From NCBI RefSeq assembly GCF_009914755.1, contig NC_060930.1: a DNA stretch of 64,000 bases; one strand, 5' to 3'. The position numbers and the translations under genes were made by a program. Below, in pieces: positions 27,671 through 58,932 of this stretch; positions within the stretch are counted from its first letter, which is position 1, and each line of letters begins with the position of its first letter. The notes below the pieces were generated by a model. The model was not told the DNA's origin. It saw only the letters and a program-made list of their open reading frames with translations, and ran no database searches. The stretch comes from the human T2T-CHM13v2.0 reference genome, Homo sapiens.

Positions 27671-28316
27671 ACGTGTTTTTTTTTTTTTTTTTTAAAAAAA
27701 CAAAACCACAAGTATGCATGTATATAGATAGGTGTATGTAAAATACTTAGTTCAAAGAAAAACATGTATATTTCTCACAAAAATAGGTGAGAATTTTTGT
27801 TTTAAAGGATAAACCTAGGTAGCTACATATTAGTTTGAGGAAGGGGGAACAGGGATGTGATGTGCCTGTATCCCTGACTTTAGACGATGGAAGGAGCTAA
27901 GCAAAACAATTGAAAAAAGACCGTTTGAAAAATACAACTGATTATTAACTCATATGCACACACGCAAAAATAAACTTTTAGAATTGAACTGCACTAAGTA
28001 AAAGTGAGTAAACTTGGCTCATCATATACTCTTGTCAGATGTAAACAAAAAAGTCCAATTATTAAAATCTGACCCCCAGAATTAAAATTGCAAAAGCTTA
28101 AAGGGGCAGTTCTGAGAAAAGGATCTTCAGTTTTGAATGTGTGGGCTCCACCAGGGTTGAAAATCCTGCACGATTGATGAAACACGATCCAGTTAAGCAC
28201 AGTAATTTTCAAATATCCAATCAGGGCGCTTCCGTTTCTAAAAACAGAGAAACCGAGCAAGGGATTTTGGGTTGCAGCTCTAAAACTCCAACAAACTAAG
28301 CTCCTTTGTCCTGACA

Positions 28317-28548
28317 AGGGCCTAAACCAAGTCGACAGCCCGTAAGTGCACCCATGGTAAGGCGCTGCACAAAGAAAGCATTTTGCGTTTCAAAGCTTTG
28401 TCATGATGGCGCTGCAGAAAGCAAGCGAGCTAGGCCTACCTGGCGGGGCTTTCAGAGGACGCCAACGTGGGCGCCAGCCACGCCAGCAGGGTCACCGTCC
28501 TTCCCAAGGACAGACAGCTCGCTAGCCACTCCTGTGGAGAGGGCGTGG
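28317..28548 (+). pseudogene. Unprocessed H3 pseudogene with a large internal deletion (possibly the locus catalogued as HIST1H1PS2/H3P26; from recall, unverified)
   Basis: RA*TKSTARKCTHGKALHK vs [19 protein letters not shown] (12/19), joined almost directly to [51 protein letters not shown] upstream and a stem-loop relic downstream. Confidence 0.9.
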
Positions 28549-28950
28549 TTAAGCCATATATTTTGCCAACTATCCCAGAAGCATTTCTTAGGACCACCCA
28601 ATTTCGGAAAATGCTACTTTAGCAATATTGACCCCAAAACGCAATATCCCCACTTTAACCTTGTATAATAAAAAGCCTCAAGCCTGGGACTGGGCTTCAA
28701 CCTTGGTTCAATACGGTTATGACTAATTAGCTTGGAGTCGTGAGACGCGGGACTTCCGGCTACCGAAACCCAGGTGACTTTAAAACTCGATTTTAACTCG
28801 GTGCATTTGAATTCACCTTGCTATCTTTGATAGATTGAGTAGTAAATTCTTACTAGATGAGGCTATGTTAAAGTTCTATCGACTCTCCAAGTGATTCTAA
28901 TATAATTGAGGGCGTGTTGCATTTGCTTGGGGGATTTCATCTGTGTACTA

Positions 28951-28992
28951 CAGCTCTTTTCCTGAAATGCGTAGGTGGCTCTTAAAAGAGCC
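28951..28992 (-). terminator. H1-1 3' stem-loop and HDE
   Basis: GGCTCTTTTAAGAGCC (28977-28992, minus strand) then ACCTA; HDE AAAAGAGCTG at 28951-28960. Confidence 0.96.
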
Positions 28993-29024
28993 GTTGGGTT
29001 ACTAGAAGAAACTTCTAACTGAAT

Positions 29025-29672
29025 TTACTTTTTCTTGGGTGCCGCTTTCTTGGGTTTGGCAGTCTTTGGCTTCGTCACCCTAGCCTTGGCCGCCTTGGGT
29101 TTTACAGCCTTAGCTTTAGCAGGGCTTTTAGCTACTTTCTTGGGCTTTACAGTTTTGGGTTTTTTTGGATTCTTGGAGGATTTCCTTGTTGCCGCAGGCT
29201 TTTTAGCCTTTTTCGGAGTCTTGACGCTCTTTTTGCTAGCCCCCGTGGCCTTTTTGAGCTTTTTAGATGCACCCGTTGCCTTAGTTTTTGTAGCCACCTT
29301 TGAGGCGCCGGGCTTGGTTTCCACGGAGGACGCCTTCTTGTTGAGCTTGAAGGAACCCGAGGCTCCGGTACCCTTTGTCTGCACCAACGTTCCCTTGCTT
29401 ACCAGGCTCTTAATGCCCAGCTTAATGCGGCTGTTGTTCTTCTCCACGTCGTAGCCTGCGGCCGCCAGCGCCTTTTTAAGAGCTGCCAACGACACACCAC
29501 CACGCTCCTTAGAGGAGGAAGCAGCCTGCACGATCAGCTCTGACACGGAAGGGCCAGCGGGTTTTTTCTTGGAGGCTGCTGCAGCCTTAGCAGGTTTCTT
29601 TGCCTTCTTGCCAGCTAAAGGTTTCTCAGGAGCAGCAGAAGCGGCGGGGGCGGGAGGCACTGTTTCAGACAT
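29025..29672 (-). CDS. H1-1: Linker histone H1.1 (215 aa)
   Basis: ATG at 29672 (the ORF track's upstream GTG is not the start). [17 protein letters not shown], globular domain GPSVSELIV...[11 protein letters not shown], Lys/Ala/Pro-rich tail. TATA upstream, stem-loop downstream. Confidence 0.98.
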
Positions 29673-29750
29673 GGTGACTAACACAGCACACCAAATAAAG
29701 TGGTATAAACCTGACGAAGCAGGATGCGAAAAAAAGGCCCCAACGCAGCC

Positions 29751-29910
29751 TATTTATAGGGTGGGACTGCGCCGTGATTGGTGCCCGTCAGTGCCCGCCC
29801 CTCGCGCCCTAGCGCCCCCTGCGCGCTGCCGAGGGTTTCGCCCAGTCTCAGAAGGCAGCTGGGGGCCTCTAGGGCCTATGGTCCTGCTCCCCTCAACGCA
29901 AGCAAACACA
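29751..29910 (-). promoter_or_regulatory. H1-1 promoter
   Basis: TATAAATA at 29751-29758 (minus), CCAAT at 29777-29781, GC box at about 29793-29801, CTCF-like motif at 29812-29825. Confidence 0.9.
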
Positions 29911-31259
29911 CAGAAAAAGCCGCTCTGGTTGCCTCATTGTGAAGGAAATTGTAGGCAGACTGCCGCCCAGTAACATCAGAGGGTACCGCTTCTCTCTCAA
30001 AAAGCAGCTCTTTTTTAGGGAGTAGGTTGAGAGGGGGCGGTTTACAAATGCAGTGCCACAAGCATCCGAGGAGTTTTATTAGAAATTTTTAGAGGTCCGT
30101 TGCCAGAGATGTTAGTTTTTAATTTGCAAGAAATGTAAAATACAGTGTTTTGAATAGTTGCGGAGGGAGAGAAAAGTGCGAGTTTTAGGCCGTGTTAGGG
30201 CCAGTTGTCATCAACTCTATTACATTTTCTGGCAATGTTTTAGAGCGATGTGTCTCGCGAATACCTTTCACGTCAAACAAGAATGAATCGTAGACAACAC
30301 CAGAATTCACAAACGCTGCAATTAATACTCAAACTGCAAGTGTGGAAACGTTTCTGCACTTGCAACTTATTTCCACAGTCCAATGTGGGATGCACTTCAG
30401 GAATTTCCAATGCCCTTTTCATCCATACAACATGCCCCAAATTGGTATTAAGGTTTACAACCTGTGTTCCATGTCAGCACACGCAATCAGCGCACCATGA
30501 CATGGTCAACTCATTCTTTTATTCAACAAATATTTATGGGCCTCACAAGCCTGCGAAAGGCGTTAAATGCTGGGTCCACGAAACCGGTTCCCTGACAGGC
30601 ATTCTGCTGGGGAGTTAAGTCCACTTAGTGTGAAAGCAAACACGGGTGATAAATGCAAGCACACCCTGGGGATAAGATTTTATGGTAACAACCCTTTAAC
30701 TTGTTTGTGGCTGTTAAGTGCATTTCAAAGTATCAATAAGCTAAAACGATCTCACATTGCCAATCAGAGACTCAGCTAATGGGAGAATAAAAAACTATTA
30801 AATCGACATCCACTTCTACAATCCTATTCTGGATAACCCCCTAGCACAGCACAGCAGAGAGTGAGGTAATGCGGTCTTATTTCCGCTCCTGCTGTGGTAG
30901 TTTTCAAATAAGTCCGAACCATGCTAAGTAACCTGAGCTTTTCCCCTTTTTCTTCAAACAACGTGCCAACCAAATAATGGAGTGGTCCCAGATAAGTATT
31001 GTACCCATCTTCTGCACCAGTGCTTCCTACGTCCCATTTTATTGAGAAGGCATGCATTCAAATATTTCACGTAATTTCTAAAAATTTGGAAAATAACGGT
31101 TGGAAACTCTACATCTTGGTTTCACGGCTAGTCAGTTATGAAACACAGGTATACAAAATTGGAAGATTTTTGTAAGTAAACCCTTTGTGAAAGATATAAA
31201 CCTTTCTTAGTGTAATAAGCGAGGTATCTGAAAAAACGCAACTTTTGAAAAGGAAATAC

Positions 31260-31465
31260 TCCTAATTATCTGATTCAGGAGTTTCCACTTTAAATAATGG
31301 GTTCTGCCTCCCTTTTTTCTATTGGGTTAAACTGGTTTCAAATAAAATGGGAACGCTCCATGCAAATGAAGGATGATAGATCTGCTTTCTAAATGGCTGT
31401 TCAAGAAAATAGCCTAAACCAATCAAAAGATAGAATGTGGCCTGTCTCTTGTGAATTTAAAAAGG
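31260..31465 (+). promoter_or_regulatory. Relic H2A promoter of the 31.5-kb pseudogene
   Basis: ATTGG at 31321, octamer ATGCAAAT at 31360-31367, CCAAT at 31419-31423, TATA relic TTTAAAAAGG at 31456-31465. 17/17 identity to the H2AC4 promoter around the octamer. Confidence 0.75.
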
Positions 31466-31501
31466 TCACAATCCACTTTTCAGTGTTTTGAGATTTTCAA
31501 A

Positions 31502-31695
31502 ATGATTGCATTAGCTCTTGGCAATGCTAAATTATGTTCCTTGCGAACCACTATCCAGTTTCTCTTGGGCCAAGTCCACCTCCTGCTCCGCAAGAGGAAC
31601 AACTCCCAGCTGGTGGTACCTGGCGGCAGTGCTGGAGAAACGCCATTTTGTGACTGGCAGAGTACACCTAGGCTTTAGAAAACAAAAGCTGCAGA
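31502..31695 (+). pseudogene. Degraded, 3'-truncated H2A pseudogene between H1-1 and H3C1
   Basis: AKLCSLRTTIQFLLGQVHLLLRKRNNSQLV vs H2[31 protein letters not shown] (16/30), then a frameshift to YLAAVLE (7/7, 31617-31637) and AIL*LA vs AEILELA. H2A-type promoter upstream. Confidence 0.85.
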
Positions 31696-32296
31696 ACGCT
31701 GCAAGTTTAGGATTCAAAGAGCATAATCAAGAGAAAGACGTCTCATAGAAAATGTTTCTGAGTAATAGTGTAATCCTACTATGTTTGAGATGCTTTGTAG
31801 ATTTCAATAACACTCCTAAGTCAATTAAAGCATTACAAAGGAATCCAATTCTTGTGAAAGGTTTCAGAAATTCCCGTAAAGGGTACATTTCCGGAGAGGA
31901 GGTGAGCAGTATTCCCTCTTTTTTTTTTTTTTTTTTTTTTCCTAAAGAGCTGAAGGTTATACGGAATTGGGGAATTATAATACCTTTGGAATCAATGCCT
32001 TGTTTTATGGAAAATAAACACAGCCTTCAGGTTATGAAAACCAGATGTAGAAGAGGACAAGTTTAAAAAATTAAAGTCCAAGCCGGCGCAGTGGGGCTCC
32101 CCTGTAATCCCAGCTACTCTGGATGCTGAGGCGGGAAGATCTTTTGAGCCCAAGTTTAAGACCAGCTTGGGGAACAAAGCAAAAGTAAAATAAAATAATA
32201 GTAGTAATAAAATACCACTTAAATAATCATCTGTAGAGTTGGAATAGAATATAGTAGCCGGTGAAACTGCACGATTGTTGCTGGCTTAAAGATAGA

Positions 32297-32839
<543 letters not shown>

Positions 32840-32870
32840 TTACTGTGGTCTCTCTGACGGTCCAAGCAAA

Positions 32871-32913
32871 GGCTCTTTTCAGAGCCACCACCTTTTCAAG
32901 TAAAGTAGCTGTA
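32871..32913 (+). terminator. H3C1 stem-loop and HDE
   Basis: GGCTCTTTTCAGAGCC at 32871-32886; AAAGTAGCTGT downstream. Confidence 0.96.
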
Positions 32914-32996
32914 AGAAACCAATTTAAGACAAAAGGGAATGCATTGGGAGCACTTTTCGTTTTAATGCTACTGAAGGCTTCAAAACCAATCGATTT

Positions 32997-33286
32997 CGGC
33001 CGGTCGCGGTGACTCACGCCTGTAATTCAAGCACTTTAAGAGGCTGAGGCGGGCGGATTACCAGAAATCAGGAGTTCGGGATCAGCCTGGCCAACATGGC
33101 CGAATCCCGTCTCTACGAAAAATACAAAAACACGCCGGGCGCGACGGCGAGCGCTTGTAATCCCAGGTACACTCTGAAGGCTGAGGCAGGAGAAACACTT
33201 GAACCTGAGAGGCAGAGGTTTCAGTGAATCGAGATGGCTCTAATGTACTCCAGTCTGGGCGACAGAGAGATTCGGTTAAAAAAAAA
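32997..33286 (+). mobile_element. AluS between H3C1 and H4C1
   Basis: Diverged Alu dimer, CpG-rich. Confidence 0.88.
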
Positions 33287-33496
33287 GTTCGACTTAAAAT
33301 AATTCTGGAGTCAGAATGGGTTTACATTTAATTCTTAACCCAGTTCCTCAAAGCCTGTAGCTCTGTTAAGAAAATAAAGGCCATTGGTCAAGCCTGCTTG
33401 GTCCCACCCTCATCTCCCCACCCTCCCCCAATCGCTGCTCCCGCCATTTCCTGGGGCTTGGAGGAGGGGTTAAAGGAGCGGACTGTAGGCGTCACA

Positions 33497-33929
<433 letters not shown>

Positions 33930-33968
33930 GGTTGCTGATTTCTCCACAGCTTGCATTTCTGAACCAAA

Positions 33969-34010
33969 GGCCCTTTTCAGGGCCGCCCAACTAAACAAAA
34001 GAAGAGCTGT
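33969..34010 (+). terminator. H4C1 stem-loop and HDE
   Basis: GGCCCTTTTCAGGGCC at 33969-33984; GAAGAGCTGT downstream. Confidence 0.96.
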
Positions 34011-36950
34011 ATCCATTAAGTCAAGAAGCTCAATGTGTAATTAAGATGAATGATACTGAGCTGACATCCTAAAAAGGAAAGATTAGGGGAACTCCAAGTT
34101 TGCCCTCCACTCACTACATATGGGTAGGGGAGCAACGATATTCCAACTCTGAAGAAAGAGTGGAAAAAAAGTAGTGTTAAAAATTTGTATTAGTTTCCAA
34201 GGGACAAAGAAGCGCTGCCCAATCAATGAGGGCCATTCGTAGCTGTCAACCAATCAGAACTGATGAGCTAATATTTCCTGAGGCAAGCCAGGGAGCCGGA
34301 GGGGAAGCTAAGAAGCTTATTGAGAAAAAACAAAAACCCTGTTTTAGGAAAAAAAAAACCATCTTTTAGCGATTATGAAATAAAATCACAGAGACATTTA
34401 AGTATCCCTCAATCATGTACTGAGAGCAATACTAAATTTATCGCCACCAATACAGTTTTACTCTATTAAAAAGACCCTGAAAATTGAAACCCTATTCAGA
34501 CTCCTGGAATACCCAGGACACTAAATTCAGGGGAGATTAAAATCTGTTTTAGAGAGAAAAGGCACCTTTTTCAGTGTTACCGCGGCCTTCAGCAGTTAAC
34601 CTTTTTTTTTCCCCCTTTACGCAGAAATGGAAATTTGGGTGATAGAAATATTCCGAAATTAAATTGTGATGATGGTTGTACAACTAAGAAAACACGGTAA
34701 AATTCATTGAACTGTACCTAAAGTGGGCAAATTTTGTGGTATATTAAATATCAATAAAGCTGATTATATACATACACATATATTTTTATATATGCAGAGA
34801 GAGAAATGATGCAAGCAGGGTGGTAGGACATGAGGTTGGTAGCATAGGCAATGTTGGTCTGTGAAGGGCCACCTGTGCTAAACCTGGAAGCCTGGGGTTT
34901 GTCCAGTCAAGCCATTGTAGCCATAGTTTTAAAGGATGTTCCTGATGCAGTTATGTGTTCCAGTTAAGTACATCTAGCTTCAGAACTCAGCTGGAAAAGG
35001 GATGTGAACTTCAGGTTAGCTGATAGGGAAATATCTTACTCTCATCTGAGTAAATATTCACAAATGCCTCTCATTGTGCTCTTTTTGGTACCATTGTTAT
35101 AGGACTGATTTCAGCCTCACGATGTTAGCTTCAGTGATGGATGTCTCTTTATTTTGAGGTCCTGTTTTCCACCTGACAGTTTTCATCCAGGATTTCTTGA
35201 GGAATTACACAAGTACCCAGCTTGGCTTAATTTAAAACTGACAATGGAGAGAATTCATAGCTGCATTCTGGATAGTTTCAGGAATCAGAGGAGCAAAAAT
35301 GAGCCTGGTATGGAGGGTGGGTCATTTTATGTCTTTCTTAGTTGGTATTTTAAAGATATTTATTGATCTCATATGCCAGATATTGTTGAAATCATTGGGG
35401 TACATAAGTTAGAAAATTTTAATTCCCTTTCCTGAATTCCAGAGTCAATGTAGAGGGGTGTGTGGATATCGATTACCCATATGGGAGGTATAGTCGTTGT
35501 AACAATAAGCCACGACTAGCTCCTGTTACGTTTTGCCTGGCCTTTCATAGCATTGCTATGTTCATAGCATTGCTGATATGTCATACTCATCTTAGGCATA
35601 CCCACCACCACCTTGGGCCTTCTTCAGTCCTAACACTCATGCAGTCCTTGTTCAGAACAAAGATAATGTTGCTTAATTTGCAACCCCTAGACTATCCCCC
35701 AGATTTTCTAAAGAGAAACTGCACGCTGATTGCTTCAGGCAGTGGCAGGTCAAGGAATGAGATGGGGAATTGATTGTGTTAGCATTCTGGTGGGCTTAGT
35801 GGAGAGCCTGGAGACTTACATAGAAAATTCACACATCCTTTCATTCAACAAACCTCCATAAACTACCTGTTAAACGTCAGCCCTGTTCAAGGTGCTAGGG
35901 ATACTTCTGGGACAAAACAAAGTCCCTACCTTCAAAAAATATATTCCAGTTGGGGGAGAGAGAACAAACACAAAATAAAATATATCTAGTTATATGTATT
36001 TTTTGTTAAATATATTATTACATATATAATTCTAGGTGGGGAAATGTTATATATATATGCTATTGAGGATAGTCAACTATATATATATATGCTAAATGAG
36101 CAGAAAAGCTTATTTTACAAGGGATGATTATGGGAGGTCTCTTTCTTAAGGTTGGTATTTGAGGAGAGGCTTGAATGAAATGAGATCTAGAGCCATTCAG
36201 ATATCCAGGACAAGACCCTTCTAGGGAGAAAGAATAGATATAAAGGTGCTGATGCTGGAAATGCTTGGTCCATTCCAGAAACAGCAAGGTCAGTGAAGAG
36301 AAAGAACTGCGAAGAGAATGAGGTCAGAGGGTAGCCAGAGTACAGATCTAGTAGGTTGAGCAGCTCATCCTAGTTTGCTTGGAACTTTCTAAGTTTCAGC
36401 ACTGTAAGTCTTACACCCTGAGAAACCCCTGAGAGTCAGGCAAACTGTAATGGTTGGTCATCTTACTTGTAGGCTATGATAAGGATGCTGGTTTTTATTA
36501 TGAAGGTGATGGAAAGCCAGTGGAATCTTTTCAGCAGACAGTGGACATAATACCTTCAAAAAGGATCACTGTTGATGCTGGATAGAGAAAAACTGTATGA
36601 CAGGGGGATTAAAAGTGAAAACAAAGACCAGTTTGGGGTCACTGTGGTCATTCAGACAAACCGCCATGGCAGCTTGCTCCTAGAGAAGCAGCAAAGAAAA
36701 CAATGAAAGGTATTCTGATTGATTTTCAACAGAGCTGACTGCATTGGGTGAAAGTTGTAAGAAGCTCAGGACAAACAATATTGCACAATTCCTGGCCCAA
36801 GCTGCTTGAAGAATGGAGTTCTATTGATTGACATGACAAATATCAGAGGAAGAACAGACTTGGTGTTTACGTATAAACATATTTTGGACAAGTTTGAGAT
36901 GCCCATTATTCAATTAGATACATCAAATATGCAGTTGTATATGAGTCTAG

Positions 36951-45026: not shown

Positions 45027-45069
45027 ACAGCTCATTTAATGGAAGTCGTAGGTGGCTCTGAAAAGAGCC
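45027..45069 (-). terminator. H2AC4 stem-loop and HDE
   Basis: GGCTCTTTTCAGAGCC at 45054-45069 (minus); AAATGAGCTGT downstream. Confidence 0.95.
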
Positions 45070-45131
45070 TTTGCTGTTAGGCTGATTTTGTCTGCTGACA
45101 GAAAAACAGCAGTGCATGAAGCGTTAACTCT

Positions 45132-45578
<447 letters not shown>

Positions 45579-45599
45579 TTAGAACGCAAGGCAGAGAAG

Positions 45600-45800
45600 T
45601 ATTTATACTGACTGGAGGTAGGCTGTGAGGAATTCTCCCATTGGCTAATGTCAAATACCCAATGGGAAATCAGAATCTGCATCCTTCATTTGCATGTAAT
45701 CCTTCCGTCTGGTGTAAGGTTTATGTTTGACCCAATCCCCAGTCTGGCTTGACGAGCCTTCGACTTGAATACTAATAATAATTGGCCGAATTAGGATTTT
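45600..45800 (-). promoter_or_regulatory. H2AC4 promoter (no H2B partner)
   Basis: TATAAATA at 45600-45607, several CCAAT boxes, octamer at 45688-45695. Confidence 0.88.
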
Positions 45801-45951
45801 GTCAAAATACCTTTTTTAAGCATGAGTGGAGGTTTTGTTCTGGTTATTTTGACTTTCAGCCGCTCGTGCTTTTCCCGGATTGTGACTCATGTTTTTGGAA
45901 AGGAGTGGACTCCGACCAATTTCTAAATAGATATTTAAGAGGTCCTTCAAA

Positions 45952-46264
45952 TCGGGCGCAGTGGCTCATGCCCGTAATACCAGCACTTTGGGAGGCCGAG
46001 GACGGCGGGTCAGGCGTTCGAGACCAGCGTGGACAACATGGAGAAACCCTGTCTCCAGTAAAATAACCAAAAAAGAAACGGGGGAGAAAAAGAAAAAAAA
46101 AAGCCGGGCTTGGTAGTGCACGCCTGTAGTTCCAGTTACTCGAGAAGCTGAGGTGGGAGGATCGCTTGAACCCGAGAGGAGGAGGTTGCAGTGAGTTCAC
46201 ATAGAGCCACCACACTCCAGCGTGGGCGACAGAGCCAGAAGACTGTGTCTCAAAGACAAAAAAA
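45952..46264 (+). mobile_element. AluJ
   Basis: Alu dimer. Confidence 0.85.
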
Positions 46265-47399
46265 GGGGAGGGGGAGTGGGAGGGAAGAAAAGCGAATACC
46301 CCAAATCCCAGTGAACTGTAGAAGCTTATAAGCTCTCTTGATTCATAAGGGAGAAAGAAGGGGGATGTAGGCAACTTAGGGGAGAGTATATGATTTTGGA
46401 GAAAAATAAATGGGTGTTTCAAAGAATAGGTGACAGCTGTGACAAAGTCTGTTTAGATGGTGTTAACCACCAGTCTCCTCTCCTGTGATACAGTTAATCT
46501 TCTCTGGTTGATGAGATTCCCCAGGGAAGTGAATCTTAACAACTAAATTCCTTTTTGAATTTTTTTTTAATTTTCAAATTTTTGATTAGAGTTCAGCGAA
46601 AGCCCTTCCTTGAATTTACTGTTTCCTAGGTGCCCTCAGTTCAAAGAAATCAGCGTAACAAAGTGGCACATTTTTGAGTTGCATTTCCTGAACTTTTTCA
46701 CAACACTGAATGAGGAGTCTCTGGAATCTTTCAGGAAATGAGAGAACAAACATTCCATAACACAGAAATACTCAAAATGGGATTATGATTATAAAAGTGT
46801 TTCACTGACCACCTTCTGCCTTCCTGTCTGTAAGTCCCATTCTCCCCAAAGTCTAGCCATAGAAACCAGAATTCCTCCTCAAGGTAGGCCATACAAACCA
46901 GAACTCCTTTTCCCTAGAACCAGCCATAAAACCTAAAAATATTACTCTAACCTACCTTGTTTGCCTGTAGGTCATAAGACCCCCCATTCTAAAAGAGAGT
47001 CTTGTCCTATAACCAGAAGGAAGAAATGCTGCACTGAGAGGTCAAGAAGAATCTTGACAGACAAGCCTTGCGGGGCTTCCCCACTCAGTCTGTTAGCATT
47101 AGATCGTACCCTATACAGCTGTTTATCTTGTTGAACCTAAGCATAAAAATGGGCAATTTCCCCTGTATCTTTCAGTCTTAATTCTAAAATCTCCTGTAAA
47201 ATTGTGATGAAATAAATATATATGCCTTTTCTCCAGTTAATCTGTGTTTTGCCAGTAATTTTCCATAAACCTTGGGAGGGCAAAGGGGAAGTTTTTCCTT
47301 GGCCGGGACAATATTATTACAGCCATTGTCTGGCTCTCCTGTTGAGGAACCTAAAATCAAGACAGATTGCCTAGGGAAATCTTGGTGTTTTTCCTTTTA

Positions 47400-57899: not shown

Positions 57900-58093
57900 T
57901 ATTTATAGTCCTGAGATTCAAATGACGGTTTAAGATTCCTCACTTCTGATTGGACAAAAGAAACACGGTTTCACTGAGGGGTGGGGTTTATGCAAATATG
58001 GAATTTATGTTATCTTTTTCTATTGGATAAAGCACCAAACATAATTGACCAATAGGATAGCTTCCTATTGCAGCCTTGCAGTTTGTATAAAAG
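57900..58093. promoter_or_regulatory. Bidirectional H2BC3/H2AC5P promoter
   Basis: Divergent TATA boxes at 57900-57907 and 58086-58093, variant octamer at 57916-57923, perfect octamer at 57990-57997, CCAAT boxes. Confidence 0.9.
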
Positions 58094-58159
58094 GATTTGT
58101 TCAGGCGCCATTCCAGCTTGCTTGTCTTTCACAGTTTTCCGCTGCTTTCATAGGTCGCT

Positions 58160-58521
58160 ATTTGCGGACGTGGAAAATGGAGCTAAAGCAAAAACTTGTT
58201 CGTCGCTACCGGGCTTGCAGTTCCCAATAGGGCAGAGTCCGTCATCTTTTTCGAAAGGGCAATTATTTTGAGCCGGTCGGAGCCGGTGCGCCAGTGTACT
58301 TACAGTACCTGGCCGCCGAGATCTTAGAACTGGTGGGCAGCGCCATACGTGACAAGACCCGCAGCATCATCCCCCGCCACCTGCAGCTGGCCATCCGAAA
58401 CGACGAGGAGGTCAACAAGCAGCTGGGCAACGTCACTATTGCTCAGGGAGGCGTCCTGTCCAATATTCAGGCCGTCCTGTTGCCAAAATAACAGAGCCAC
58501 GATAAGGCCAAGGTCAAGTAA
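58160..58521 (+). pseudogene. H2AC5P: Unprocessed H2A pseudogene, divergent partner of H2BC3
   Basis: Start codon ATG>ATT at 58160. N-tail deletion, frameshifts, loss of AAVL, premature TAA at 58489-58491. Clear H2A peptides remain ([37 protein letters not shown]). Damaged stem-loop at 58558-58573. Confidence 0.93.
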
Positions 58522-58644
58522 ACACTCAAATCAGAAAACGTAGCTTACACTTGAAACGGCATTTTTCAGAGCCGTCCATAGTTACACAAGAAAGGATGAT
58601 AACTTGCTTCTGTTAGGGTATTTTTTGCTTTTCGTTTGGATTGG

Positions 58645-58932
58645 TTTGTTTTGAGACAGTCTAGCTCTGTCACCCAGGCTGGAGTGCAGCGGCGCGATAT
58701 CGGCTTACTGCAACCTCCACCCCGCCGCTTCACGCGGTTCTCATGCCACAGCCTCCTGTGTACTTGGGATTACAGGCGTCTGCTACCGCGCCCAGCTAGT
58801 TTTTGTATTTTTATGCGAGACGGGGTTTCACCATTTTAGCCAGGGTTGTCTTGAACTCCTGGCCTCTAGTGATCGTCCCATCTCGCCCTCCCAAAATGCT
58901 GGGATTACAGGCGTGAGCCACCGCCCCCCTAG
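58645..58932 (-). mobile_element. Alu (S-like)
   Basis: Diverged, CpG-rich Alu dimer. Confidence 0.87.

What the first reader, a model, noticed from the sequence alone, without database searches (positions are those of the whole stretch)
31260..31695. Hidden H2A gene fossil with its promoter between H1-1 and H3C1
Seen: two overlapping short ORFs in the track each carry H2A peptides. They are AKLCSLRTTIQFLLGQVHLLLRKRNNSQLV (16/30 identical to H2AC4) and, after a deletion and frameshift over GAGAP, YLAAVLE (7/7). Upstream are an octamer (31360), CCAAT (31419), a TATA relic (31456) and an ATG (31502). The octamer-TATA distance of 96 bp equals that at H2AC5P (57990 to 58086). Homology fades after about 31695 and no stem-loop is visible. 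Inference: this is an unprocessed, 3'-truncated H2A pseudogene. I do not recall a named pseudogene at this position, so it may be unannotated.
Basis: partly seen in the sequence, partly recalled or inferred. Interest (0 to 1): 0.85.

Follow-up and report, generated by a model that had tools for sequence, protein, structure and literature searches.

The report
Unannotated decayed H2A gene relic
Between the histone genes H1-1 and H3C1 lies the badly eroded front third of an old histone H2A gene, still attached to its promoter; it is real and unannotated in RefSeq, but it is an ordinary dead gene remnant.

Summary
A DNA profile of 19 human H2A genes (promoter to 3' end) matches window 31278-31637 on the + strand at 54.2 bits, E 5.8e-17. 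Promoter-only and coding-only profiles hit adjacent pieces separately: 31350-31475 (E 1e-6) and 31514-31640 (E 6.7e-14). The relic keeps the H2A/H2B-type promoter layout and codons 11-44 and 51-57. It lacks the first ~10 codons. A 17-base deletion shifts the frame. It has no codons 58-130 and no 3' stem-loop. Homology ends near 31640, not 31695. Because non-transcribed promoter is retained inside the cluster, it is an unprocessed relic, not a retrocopy. It is the most decayed H2A pseudogene of the cluster: 17 of 69 otherwise invariant sites changed, CpG almost gone. It fills the H2A slot upstream of H3C1, a layout seen at 7 of 12 cluster H3 genes. RefSeq has nothing here, and the 2022 nomenclature table names no H2A pseudogene here. 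GENCODE and other mammals could not be checked. I found no sign of present function. It is a new member of a known kind, of low interest.

The parts
31278..31359 (+). Distal part of the H2A/H2B-type divergent promoter relic, with an inverted CCAAT box (ATTGG) at 31321-31325. The alignment here is weaker.
   Evidence: The full-gene profile alignment starts at 31278 with low posterior values. A 13-base stretch around ATTGG matches H2AC4 at 12 of 13 bases. ATTGG lies 39 bases before the octamer here, against 41 at H2AC4 and H2AC5P.
31360..31367 (+). Octamer ATGCAAAT, intact.
   Evidence: Exact match. With its flanks, 17 of 17 bases are identical to H2AC4. It lies inside the promoter-only profile hit 31350-31475, E 1e-6.
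31392..31396 (+). Second inverted CCAAT box, mutated to AATGG.
   Evidence: It lies 32 bases after the octamer start, the same as the ATTGG of H2AC4 and of H2AC5P.
31419..31423 (+). CCAAT box, intact.
   Evidence: It lies 59 bases after the octamer start, as at H2AC5P (59); H2AC4 has 51. It aligns to the conserved ccAAtc of the profile.
31456..31463 (+). TATA relic (TTTAAAAA; the family has TATAAA).
   Evidence: It aligns to the tatAaa of the profile. It lies 96 bases after the octamer, as at H2AC5P.
31464..31513 (+). Shortened 5' leader with loss of about the first 10 codons. It holds an in-frame ATG at 31502-31504 of uncertain ancestry.
   Evidence: The profile alignment leaves the family's start codon and first ~28 coding bases unmatched. 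TATA to ATG is 46 bases here against 83 at H2AC4.
31514..31615 (+). Coding relic, H2A codons 11-44, in one frame.
   Evidence: tblastn gives 47% over aa 11-48, E 2.5e-4. blastn gives 67% over 113 bases, E 2.7e-10. The coding-only profile hits 31514-31640 at E 6.7e-14.
31615..31616 (+). Junction of a 17-base deletion (codons for GAGAP plus two bases), which shifts the frame.
   Evidence: Gap of 17 profile positions in the alignments.
31617..31637 (+). Coding relic, H2A codons 51-57 (YLAAVLE), in the shifted frame. H2A homology ends at 31637-31642.
   Evidence: The last 22 aligned columns, which include these codons, match the family consensus at 20 of 22. The envelope ends at 31642. There is no further similarity in 31638-32060.

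Best explanation
This is the in situ remnant of a replication-dependent H2A gene of the major histone cluster. It once stood head-to-tail upstream of H3C1, as H2A genes do at most H3 genes of the cluster.

The gene lost function long ago, on the order of 100 million years (a rough inference). Since then it has decayed neutrally:
- point substitutions with loss of CpG;
- loss of the leader and the first ~10 codons;
- a 17-base frameshifting deletion;
- loss of everything from codon 58 through the 3' stem-loop.

Any H2B partner that shared the divergent promoter is no longer detectable. Today it most likely does nothing: it makes no histone, and nothing here shows that the promoter boxes are still used.

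Shown: the H2A identity, the extent, the lesions, the retained promoter, the lack of annotation and the relative decay.

Inferred: that a complete gene once stood here rather than a partial copy, the age, and the lack of function.

The confidence of 0.65 is for this whole statement. That the stretch is an unprocessed H2A relic at all I put near 0.97.
For: Identity and extent:
- The full H2A gene profile (19 genes) hits 31278-31637 (+) at 54.2 bits, E 5.8e-17. It is the third-best hit in the window after H2AC4 and H2AC5P.
- The promoter-only and coding-only profiles hit adjacent pieces independently, at E 1e-6 and 6.7e-14. Each is again the third-best hit.
- Box spacing matches the two annotated H2A promoters of the window.

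Lesions: missing N-terminal codons and the 17-base deletion, no tail, no stem-loop.

Decay:
- At columns invariant in all 19 functional human H2A-type genes, the relic differs at 16 of 69 or 17 of 69 (another alignment).
- The named pseudogenes differ less: H2AC5P 18/187, H2AC10P 14/203, H2AC3P 17/202, H2AC2P 32/202, H2AC9P 16/92.
- CpG observed/expected is 0.25 over the relic and 0.14 in its promoter (1 CpG in 235 bases), against 1.03 in the H2AC4 coding sequence.

Position:
- An H2A gene lies directly upstream on the same strand at 7 of 12 H3C genes of the cluster. The relic gives H3C1 the same layout.
- The order relic-H3C1-H4C1 (+) mirrors H2AC4-H3C2-H4C2 (-).

Background: in situ pseudogenisation is described as a feature of these clusters (Seal et al. 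2022, section read).
Against: - At protein level the signal is weak. Pfam finds no family in either ORF peptide at E up to 10.
- The genome-wide six-frame search with H2AC4 did not list this place among its 58 matches from 62 candidates.
- Apart from the genes themselves, no intergenic similarity links the two mirrored arms. The inverted-duplication idea therefore rests on gene order alone.
- No H2B relic was found next to it.
- A once-complete gene cannot be told from a partial duplicate with these data.
- The age rests on 69 sites and on recalled neutral rates.
- No other mammal, no GENCODE track and no expression or binding data could be consulted.
Confidence: 0.65

Rival explanations
1. 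Born-dead partial duplicate. A segment holding only an H2A promoter and the first ~170 coding bases was copied here by unequal or non-homologous recombination. A complete gene never existed at this place.
For: Homology stops abruptly at about 31640, right after a well-matching stretch (20 of 22 columns match the consensus), and nothing H2A-like follows. No H2B partner relic is present.
Against: The position is exactly the H2A slot upstream of an H3 gene, seen at 7 of 12 cluster H3 genes. The relic carries other deletions, so a further deletion of the 3' part is an easy explanation. The good match of the last 22 columns is not unusual: 756 of 10000 shuffles reach it.
Confidence: 0.25
2. Exapted regulatory module. 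The coding part is dead, but the octamer and CCAAT boxes are kept by selection as a binding platform (OCT1, NF-Y) that serves H1-1 or H3C1, or histone locus body assembly.
For: Three of five boxes are intact: the octamer, one CCAAT and one ATTGG. With about 22% change per site I would expect roughly 1.2 intact (my arithmetic). Promoter columns invariant in the family differ at only 1 of 9.
Against: - The excess is small and not significant.
- TATA and the second ATTGG are mutated.
- The promoter has 1 CpG in 235 bases, observed/expected 0.14, below the live promoters of H2AC4 (0.39), H3C1 (0.77) and H1-1 (0.69).
- No RefSeq functional element overlaps it; the nearest annotated enhancer begins at 31903.
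Confidence: 0.07
3. Retrocopy (processed pseudogene) of an H2A mRNA that landed in the cluster by chance.
For: Histone genes have no introns, so lack of introns does not argue either way.
Against: About 200 bases of non-transcribed promoter upstream of the TATA box are present, with family-typical box order and spacing. There is no 3' end of an mRNA.
Confidence: 0.01
4. Chance resemblance in AT-rich intergenic DNA.
For: The octamer alone is at chance frequency, 6 found against 4.5 expected. Protein-level tools see little.
Against: Two independent profile hits are adjacent, in the right order and on the same strand (E 1e-6 and 6.7e-14). The combined hit has E 5.8e-17. The coding-only profile gave no hit at all in 9.4 kb of five other cluster intervals.
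Confidence: 0.01

Closest known systems
H2AC5P (H2A clustered histone 5, pseudogene), window 58064-58714
   Same: It is an unprocessed H2A pseudogene in the same sub-cluster, standing upstream of an H3 gene on the same strand. Its promoter box spacing is identical: octamer to ATTGG 32, to CCAAT 59, to TATA 96.
   Different: H2AC5P is nearly full length (profile positions 8-392 of the coding sequence) and keeps a weak stem-loop match. It still faces a live H2B partner, H2BC3, and is less decayed: 18 of 187 invariant sites changed, CpG observed/expected 0.85. The relic keeps only about 42 of 130 codons and has no partner.
H2AC9P (H2A clustered histone 9, pseudogene)
   Same: It is a short, 5'-only H2A fragment in the cluster. 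The coding profile matches positions 5-169 there, a similar extent to the relic's 31-174. Its decay is comparable at 16 of 92 invariant sites.
   Different: H2AC9P is annotated and named. It keeps the first codons. It stands next to H1-3 in convergent orientation, not upstream of an H3 gene.
H2AC4 (functional), window 45048-45577
   Same: It has nominally the closest promoter (104 of 207 aligned bases) and ties among the closest coding sequences (87 of 125). It is the mirror-image counterpart in the order H2A-H3-H4. Like the relic, it has no H2B partner.
   Different: H2AC4 is intact, CpG-rich and has a stem-loop.
Orphan H2B genes H2BC5, H2BC6 and H2BC9
   Same: Each is one surviving half of a divergent H2A/H2B pair. 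The H2A-family promoter profile matches beside each (E 5.6e-16, 4.5e-7, 6.8e-7).
   Different: There the promoter still serves a live H2B gene and no H2A coding relic remains (0 coding-profile hits). Here the coding relic remains and both genes are dead or gone.

Membership tests
Replication-dependent (clustered) H2A gene | Sequence homology to H2A coding sequence | tested here: met
   The coding-only DNA profile hits 31514-31640 at E 6.7e-14. tblastn gives E 2.5e-4. Pfam at protein level finds nothing.
Replication-dependent (clustered) H2A gene | Complete open reading frame of about 130 codons | tested here: not met
   Only codons 11-44 and 51-57 remain, there is a 17-base frameshift, and there is no tail.
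Replication-dependent (clustered) H2A gene | 3' UTR histone stem-loop | tested here: not met
   No Rfam RF00032 match between 29728 and 32389 at E up to 10. No stem-loop hit from the H2A or H2B DNA profiles in that interval.
Replication-dependent (clustered) H2A gene | H2A/H2B-type promoter (octamer, CCAAT boxes, TATA) in family order and spacing | tested here: met
   The promoter-only profile gives E 1e-6. Spacings equal those of H2AC5P. Two of five boxes are mutated.
Replication-dependent (clustered) H2A gene | Divergent H2B partner | tested here: not met
   No H2B match on either strand in 29728-31300 by tblastn or by the profile of 18 H2B genes. This feature is not universal: H2AC4 also lacks a partner.
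Unprocessed (in situ or duplicated) pseudogene | Non-transcribed flanking sequence of the parent retained, location beside paralogues, disabling lesions | tested here: met
   Promoter retained. The relic lies inside the cluster between H1-1 and H3C1. Frameshift and truncations are present.
Processed pseudogene | Starts at or after the transcription start, with no parental promoter | tested here: not met
   About 200 bases of promoter lie upstream of the TATA relic.
[quoted passage not shown] | Identity and coverage threshold | tested here: not met
   47% identity over 38 of 130 residues. This may explain why it carries no name.
Active cis-regulatory element | Constraint, accessibility, factor binding | not testable with these tools
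   There are only indirect signs against: CpG observed/expected 0.14 and no RefSeq functional element over it.

The most novel reading that the evidence does not exclude
The relic is the lost third member of an ancestral H2A-H3-H4 unit whose inverted duplication produced today's mirror layout H3C1-H4C1 / H4C2-H3C2-H2AC4. In addition, its surviving octamer and CCAAT boxes are still bound and act as a distal element for H1-1 or H3C1. It would then be both a dated marker for the early history of the mammalian major histone cluster and a case of a dead promoter reused.
Probability: 0.07. Interest if true: 0.4.

Novelty: new member of a known kind. Interest (0 to 1): 0.2.

Why it matters
The value is modest.

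- It adds a sixth, and the most eroded, H2A pseudogene to the major human histone cluster.
- It shows that protein-based pseudogene finders miss such relics, while a DNA profile that includes the promoter finds them easily.
- It makes H3C1 conform to the recurrent H2A-then-H3 layout. This is a small clue to how the cluster grew by birth-and-death duplication.
- Practically, it is a place where H2A-directed probes, guides or short reads could cross-map weakly.
- It is also a candidate for an annotation update.

Tried and rejected
- Extension of the relic to 31695 and beyond. By eye a few short words looked like later H2A codons. Local alignment of 31638-32060 against the rest of four H2A genes did not beat dinucleotide shuffles, so I dropped it.
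- An H2B partner relic upstream. tblastn and a DNA profile of 18 H2B genes found none. Nor did they find one upstream of H2AC4.
- Intergenic homology between the mirrored arms. Sensitive blastn found only the genes themselves.
- Assigning a parent gene. H2AC4 is nominally closest in the promoter (50%), but coding identities are 57-71% for all genes. The result is not decisive.
- A gene-conversion patch at the well-matching last 22 columns. The match is not unusual: 756 of 10000 shuffles reach it.
- DNA search of the whole reference with the relic found only itself.
- The genome-wide protein search did not list the relic.
- Pfam on the ORF peptides found nothing.
- The bacterial-type promoter and terminator scan is not relevant to a human locus and I draw nothing from it.
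- H2A relics at five other gaps of the cluster: beside H2BC5, H2BC6 and H2BC9, and upstream of H3C6 and H3C9P. Only the live H2B promoters matched, with no coding relic.
- Literature. Searches turned up no mention of an H2A relic between H1-1 and H3C1. I read passages of PMC9526256, bioRxiv 10.1101/720235, PMC13525598 and PMC8025322. Figure 1 and Additional File 1 of PMC9526256 could not be seen; they show unannotated genes per species and may bear on this claim.
- I did not use the search for homologous proteins. The peptides share almost no 5-residue words with H2A, so the costly search would have been blind.

Full report
**What is there**

Two overlapping + strand ORFs, 31451-31678 and 31518-31748, carry the quoted peptides. 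Against the H2AC4 protein translated from the window, the first peptide is identical at 16 of 30 positions and YLAAVLE at 7 of 7. The octamer ATGCAAAT is at 31360-31367. CCAAT is at 31419-31423, a TATA-like TTTAAAAA at 31456, and an ATG at 31502 in frame with the H2A-like frame.

**Is it more than chance?**

- tblastn of H2AC4 against the 64-kb window gives 31514-31627, frame +2, 47% over 38 residues (aa 11-48), E 2.5e-4. It is the third hit after H2AC4 itself and H2AC5P.
- blastn gives two collinear, same-strand matches to H2AC4. The coding match is 31513-31625, 67% over 113 ungapped bases, E 2.7e-10. The promoter match is 31359-31414, 75%, E 0.002.
- I built a DNA profile from 19 human H2A-type genes fetched from this reference (17 clustered genes plus H2AJ and H2AX; 330 bases before to 520 after the ATG). 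It matches 31278-31637 on the + strand at 54.2 bits, E 5.8e-17.
- Split profiles hit adjacent pieces independently. The promoter-only profile hits 31350-31475 (E 1e-6). The coding-only profile hits 31514-31640 (E 6.7e-14). Each is third after the two annotated H2A loci.
- Scaled to the whole genome (x48,700, my arithmetic), the combined E-value stays near 3e-12.
- The coding-only profile found nothing in 9.4 kb of five other cluster intervals.
- Against this, protein-level tools are nearly blind to it. Pfam finds no family in either peptide at E up to 10. The genome-wide six-frame search with H2AC4 listed 58 matches from 62 candidates without this place. A DNA search of the genome with the relic found only itself.

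**Anatomy**

The promoter follows the family layout. Distances from the octamer start:

| Element | Relic | H2AC5P | H2AC4 |
|---|---|---|---|
| Upstream ATTGG, bases before the octamer | 39 | 41 | 41 |
| Second ATTGG (here mutated to AATGG) | 32 | 32 | 32 |
| CCAAT | 59 | 59 | 51 |
| TATA | 96 | 96 | 88 |

- The octamer with its flanks is identical to H2AC4 over 17 bases.
- The leader is shortened, and the family's start codon and first ~28 coding bases have no counterpart. TATA to the present ATG is 46 bases against 83 at H2AC4.
- Codons 11-44 follow in one frame.
- A 17-base deletion between 31615 and 31616 removes GAGAP and two more bases.
- Codons 51-57 follow in the shifted frame.
- Homology ends there. 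The envelope ends at 31642. The stretch 31638-32060 is no more similar to the remainder of four H2A genes than shuffles are: 300, 56, 110 and 270 of 300 shuffles reach the observed score.
- No histone stem-loop exists between H1-1 and H3C1. Rfam RF00032 hits in 28000-34500 lie only at the 3' ends of H1-1, H3C1 and H4C1. The stem-loop parts of my H2A and H2B profiles hit only annotated genes.
- No H2B relic lies upstream.

**What kind of pseudogene**

The retained non-transcribed promoter and the position inside the cluster exclude a retrocopy. This is an unprocessed relic.

**How old**

- At alignment columns where all 19 functional genes agree, the relic differs at 16 of 69 or 17 of 69 (a different alignment). 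This is about 0.28-0.30 substitutions per site after Jukes-Cantor correction. At non-CpG columns it differs at 11-12 of 54.
- The five named clustered H2A pseudogenes are all less changed: H2AC10P 14/203, H2AC3P 17/202, H2AC5P 18/187, H2AC2P 32/202, H2AC9P 16/92.
- CpG is almost gone. Observed/expected is 0.25 over the relic and 0.14 in its promoter, against 1.03 in the H2AC4 coding sequence.
- With neutral rates of 1-2.2e-9 per site per year (recalled, not from a call), this suggests roughly 100-300 million years. The sampling error from 69 sites is wide. I hold only that it is the oldest of the set and probably predates the placental radiation.
- Seal et al. 2022 state that gene order in these clusters is remarkably conserved among mammals and that in situ pseudogenisation is a feature of them (section read). 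Both fit this reading.

**Why here**

- In the RefSeq gene list of the cluster, an H2A gene lies directly upstream on the same strand at 7 of 12 H3C genes: H3C2, H3C3, H3C4, H3C5P, H3C8, H3C10 and H3C12. The relic gives H3C1 the same layout.
- The order relic-H3C1-H4C1 on the + strand mirrors H2AC4-H3C2-H4C2 on the - strand. This suggests an old inverted duplication of an H2A-H3-H4 unit.
- Beyond the genes no similarity links the arms. This therefore remains an inference from gene order.
- H2AC4 has nominally the closest promoter (104 of 207), but coding identities are similar for all paralogues.

**Function**

- I found no sign of any. No RefSeq gene, functional element or masked repeat overlaps 31260-31695; the nearest annotated enhancer starts at 31903.
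- Three of the five boxes are intact, where I would expect about 1.2 under the measured decay. That is not significant. TATA and one ATTGG are mutated, and the CpG depletion argues for long germline silence.
- The good match of the last 22 columns (20 of 22) is within expectation: 756 of 10000 shuffles reach it.

**Novelty**

- RefSeq RS_2025_08 has nothing here.
- Table 3 of Seal et al. 2022 names five human clustered H2A pseudogenes (passages read), and all map elsewhere.
- The HGNC threshold, quoted in bioRxiv 10.1101/720235 (passage read), is 50% identity across 50% of the ORF. The relic has 47% over 29%, which may explain the gap.
- Five literature searches gave no mention.
- I could not see GENCODE, Figure 1 or Additional File 1 of Seal et al., or any other mammalian genome. 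'Unannotated' therefore holds only for the sources named.

**Verdict**

The finding is real and correctly interpreted. It ends at about 31640 and is probably functionless. It is a new member of a known kind, of low general interest.

Noticed in passing
G000 chr2:100998224-100998436 (-); chr12:95849952-95850125 (+); chrX:56574152-56574250 (+): H2A-like six-frame matches with internal stops (E 1.4e-8, 1.5e-6, 4.1e-5). None has a histone gene or pseudogene in RefSeq. The first has no gene within 2 kb; the others lie inside CCDC38 and FAAH2. They are probably unannotated retrocopy fragments.
   Followed up: partly
whole HIST1 cluster, chr6:25.59-27.77 Mb (gene list): The H2B/H2A divergent pair followed by an H3 gene on the H2A strand is a recurrent unit. 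Seven of 12 H3C genes have an H2A directly upstream on the same strand.
   Followed up: partly
L062 (chr6:26025200-26026300), L061 (26050000-26051950), L058 (26119000-26120200): The partnerless H2B genes H2BC5, H2BC6 and H2BC9 keep the H2A-family side of the divergent promoter (E 5.6e-16, 4.5e-7, 6.8e-7). They have no detectable H2A coding relic.
   Followed up: yes
window 45577-46500: H2AC4 has the divergent-type promoter, including the upstream ATTGG and the octamer. It has no H2B partner and no H2B relic by the profile.
   Followed up: partly
window 58064-58714 (H2AC5P): H2AC5P keeps many CpGs (22, observed/expected 0.85) and a weak stem-loop match (58515-58610, E 0.011) although it is a pseudogene. 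This may be because it shares a promoter with the live H2BC3.
   Followed up: no
window 33562-33645 (+) and 39265-39161 (-): The H2A gene profile weakly matches the 5' ends of H4C1 and H4C2 (E 5.9e-5 and 3.4e-5). I take this to reflect the similar N-terminal SGRGK-type codons and leaders of H2A and H4.
   Followed up: no
window 31917-31940 and 32060-32226; 32999-33115: A T-run is followed by a fragment that matches dozens of other places in the window. It is masked at 32096-32212 and is probably an Alu piece. A further SRP-RNA-like (Alu-type) match lies at 32999-33115, below the Rfam threshold.
   Followed up: no
window 28047-28781 (H3P26): The H3 similarity is split over two frames (28326-28376, 28388-28444, 28419-28541) and has no stem-loop. 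It lies just past the 3' end of H1-1.
   Followed up: no
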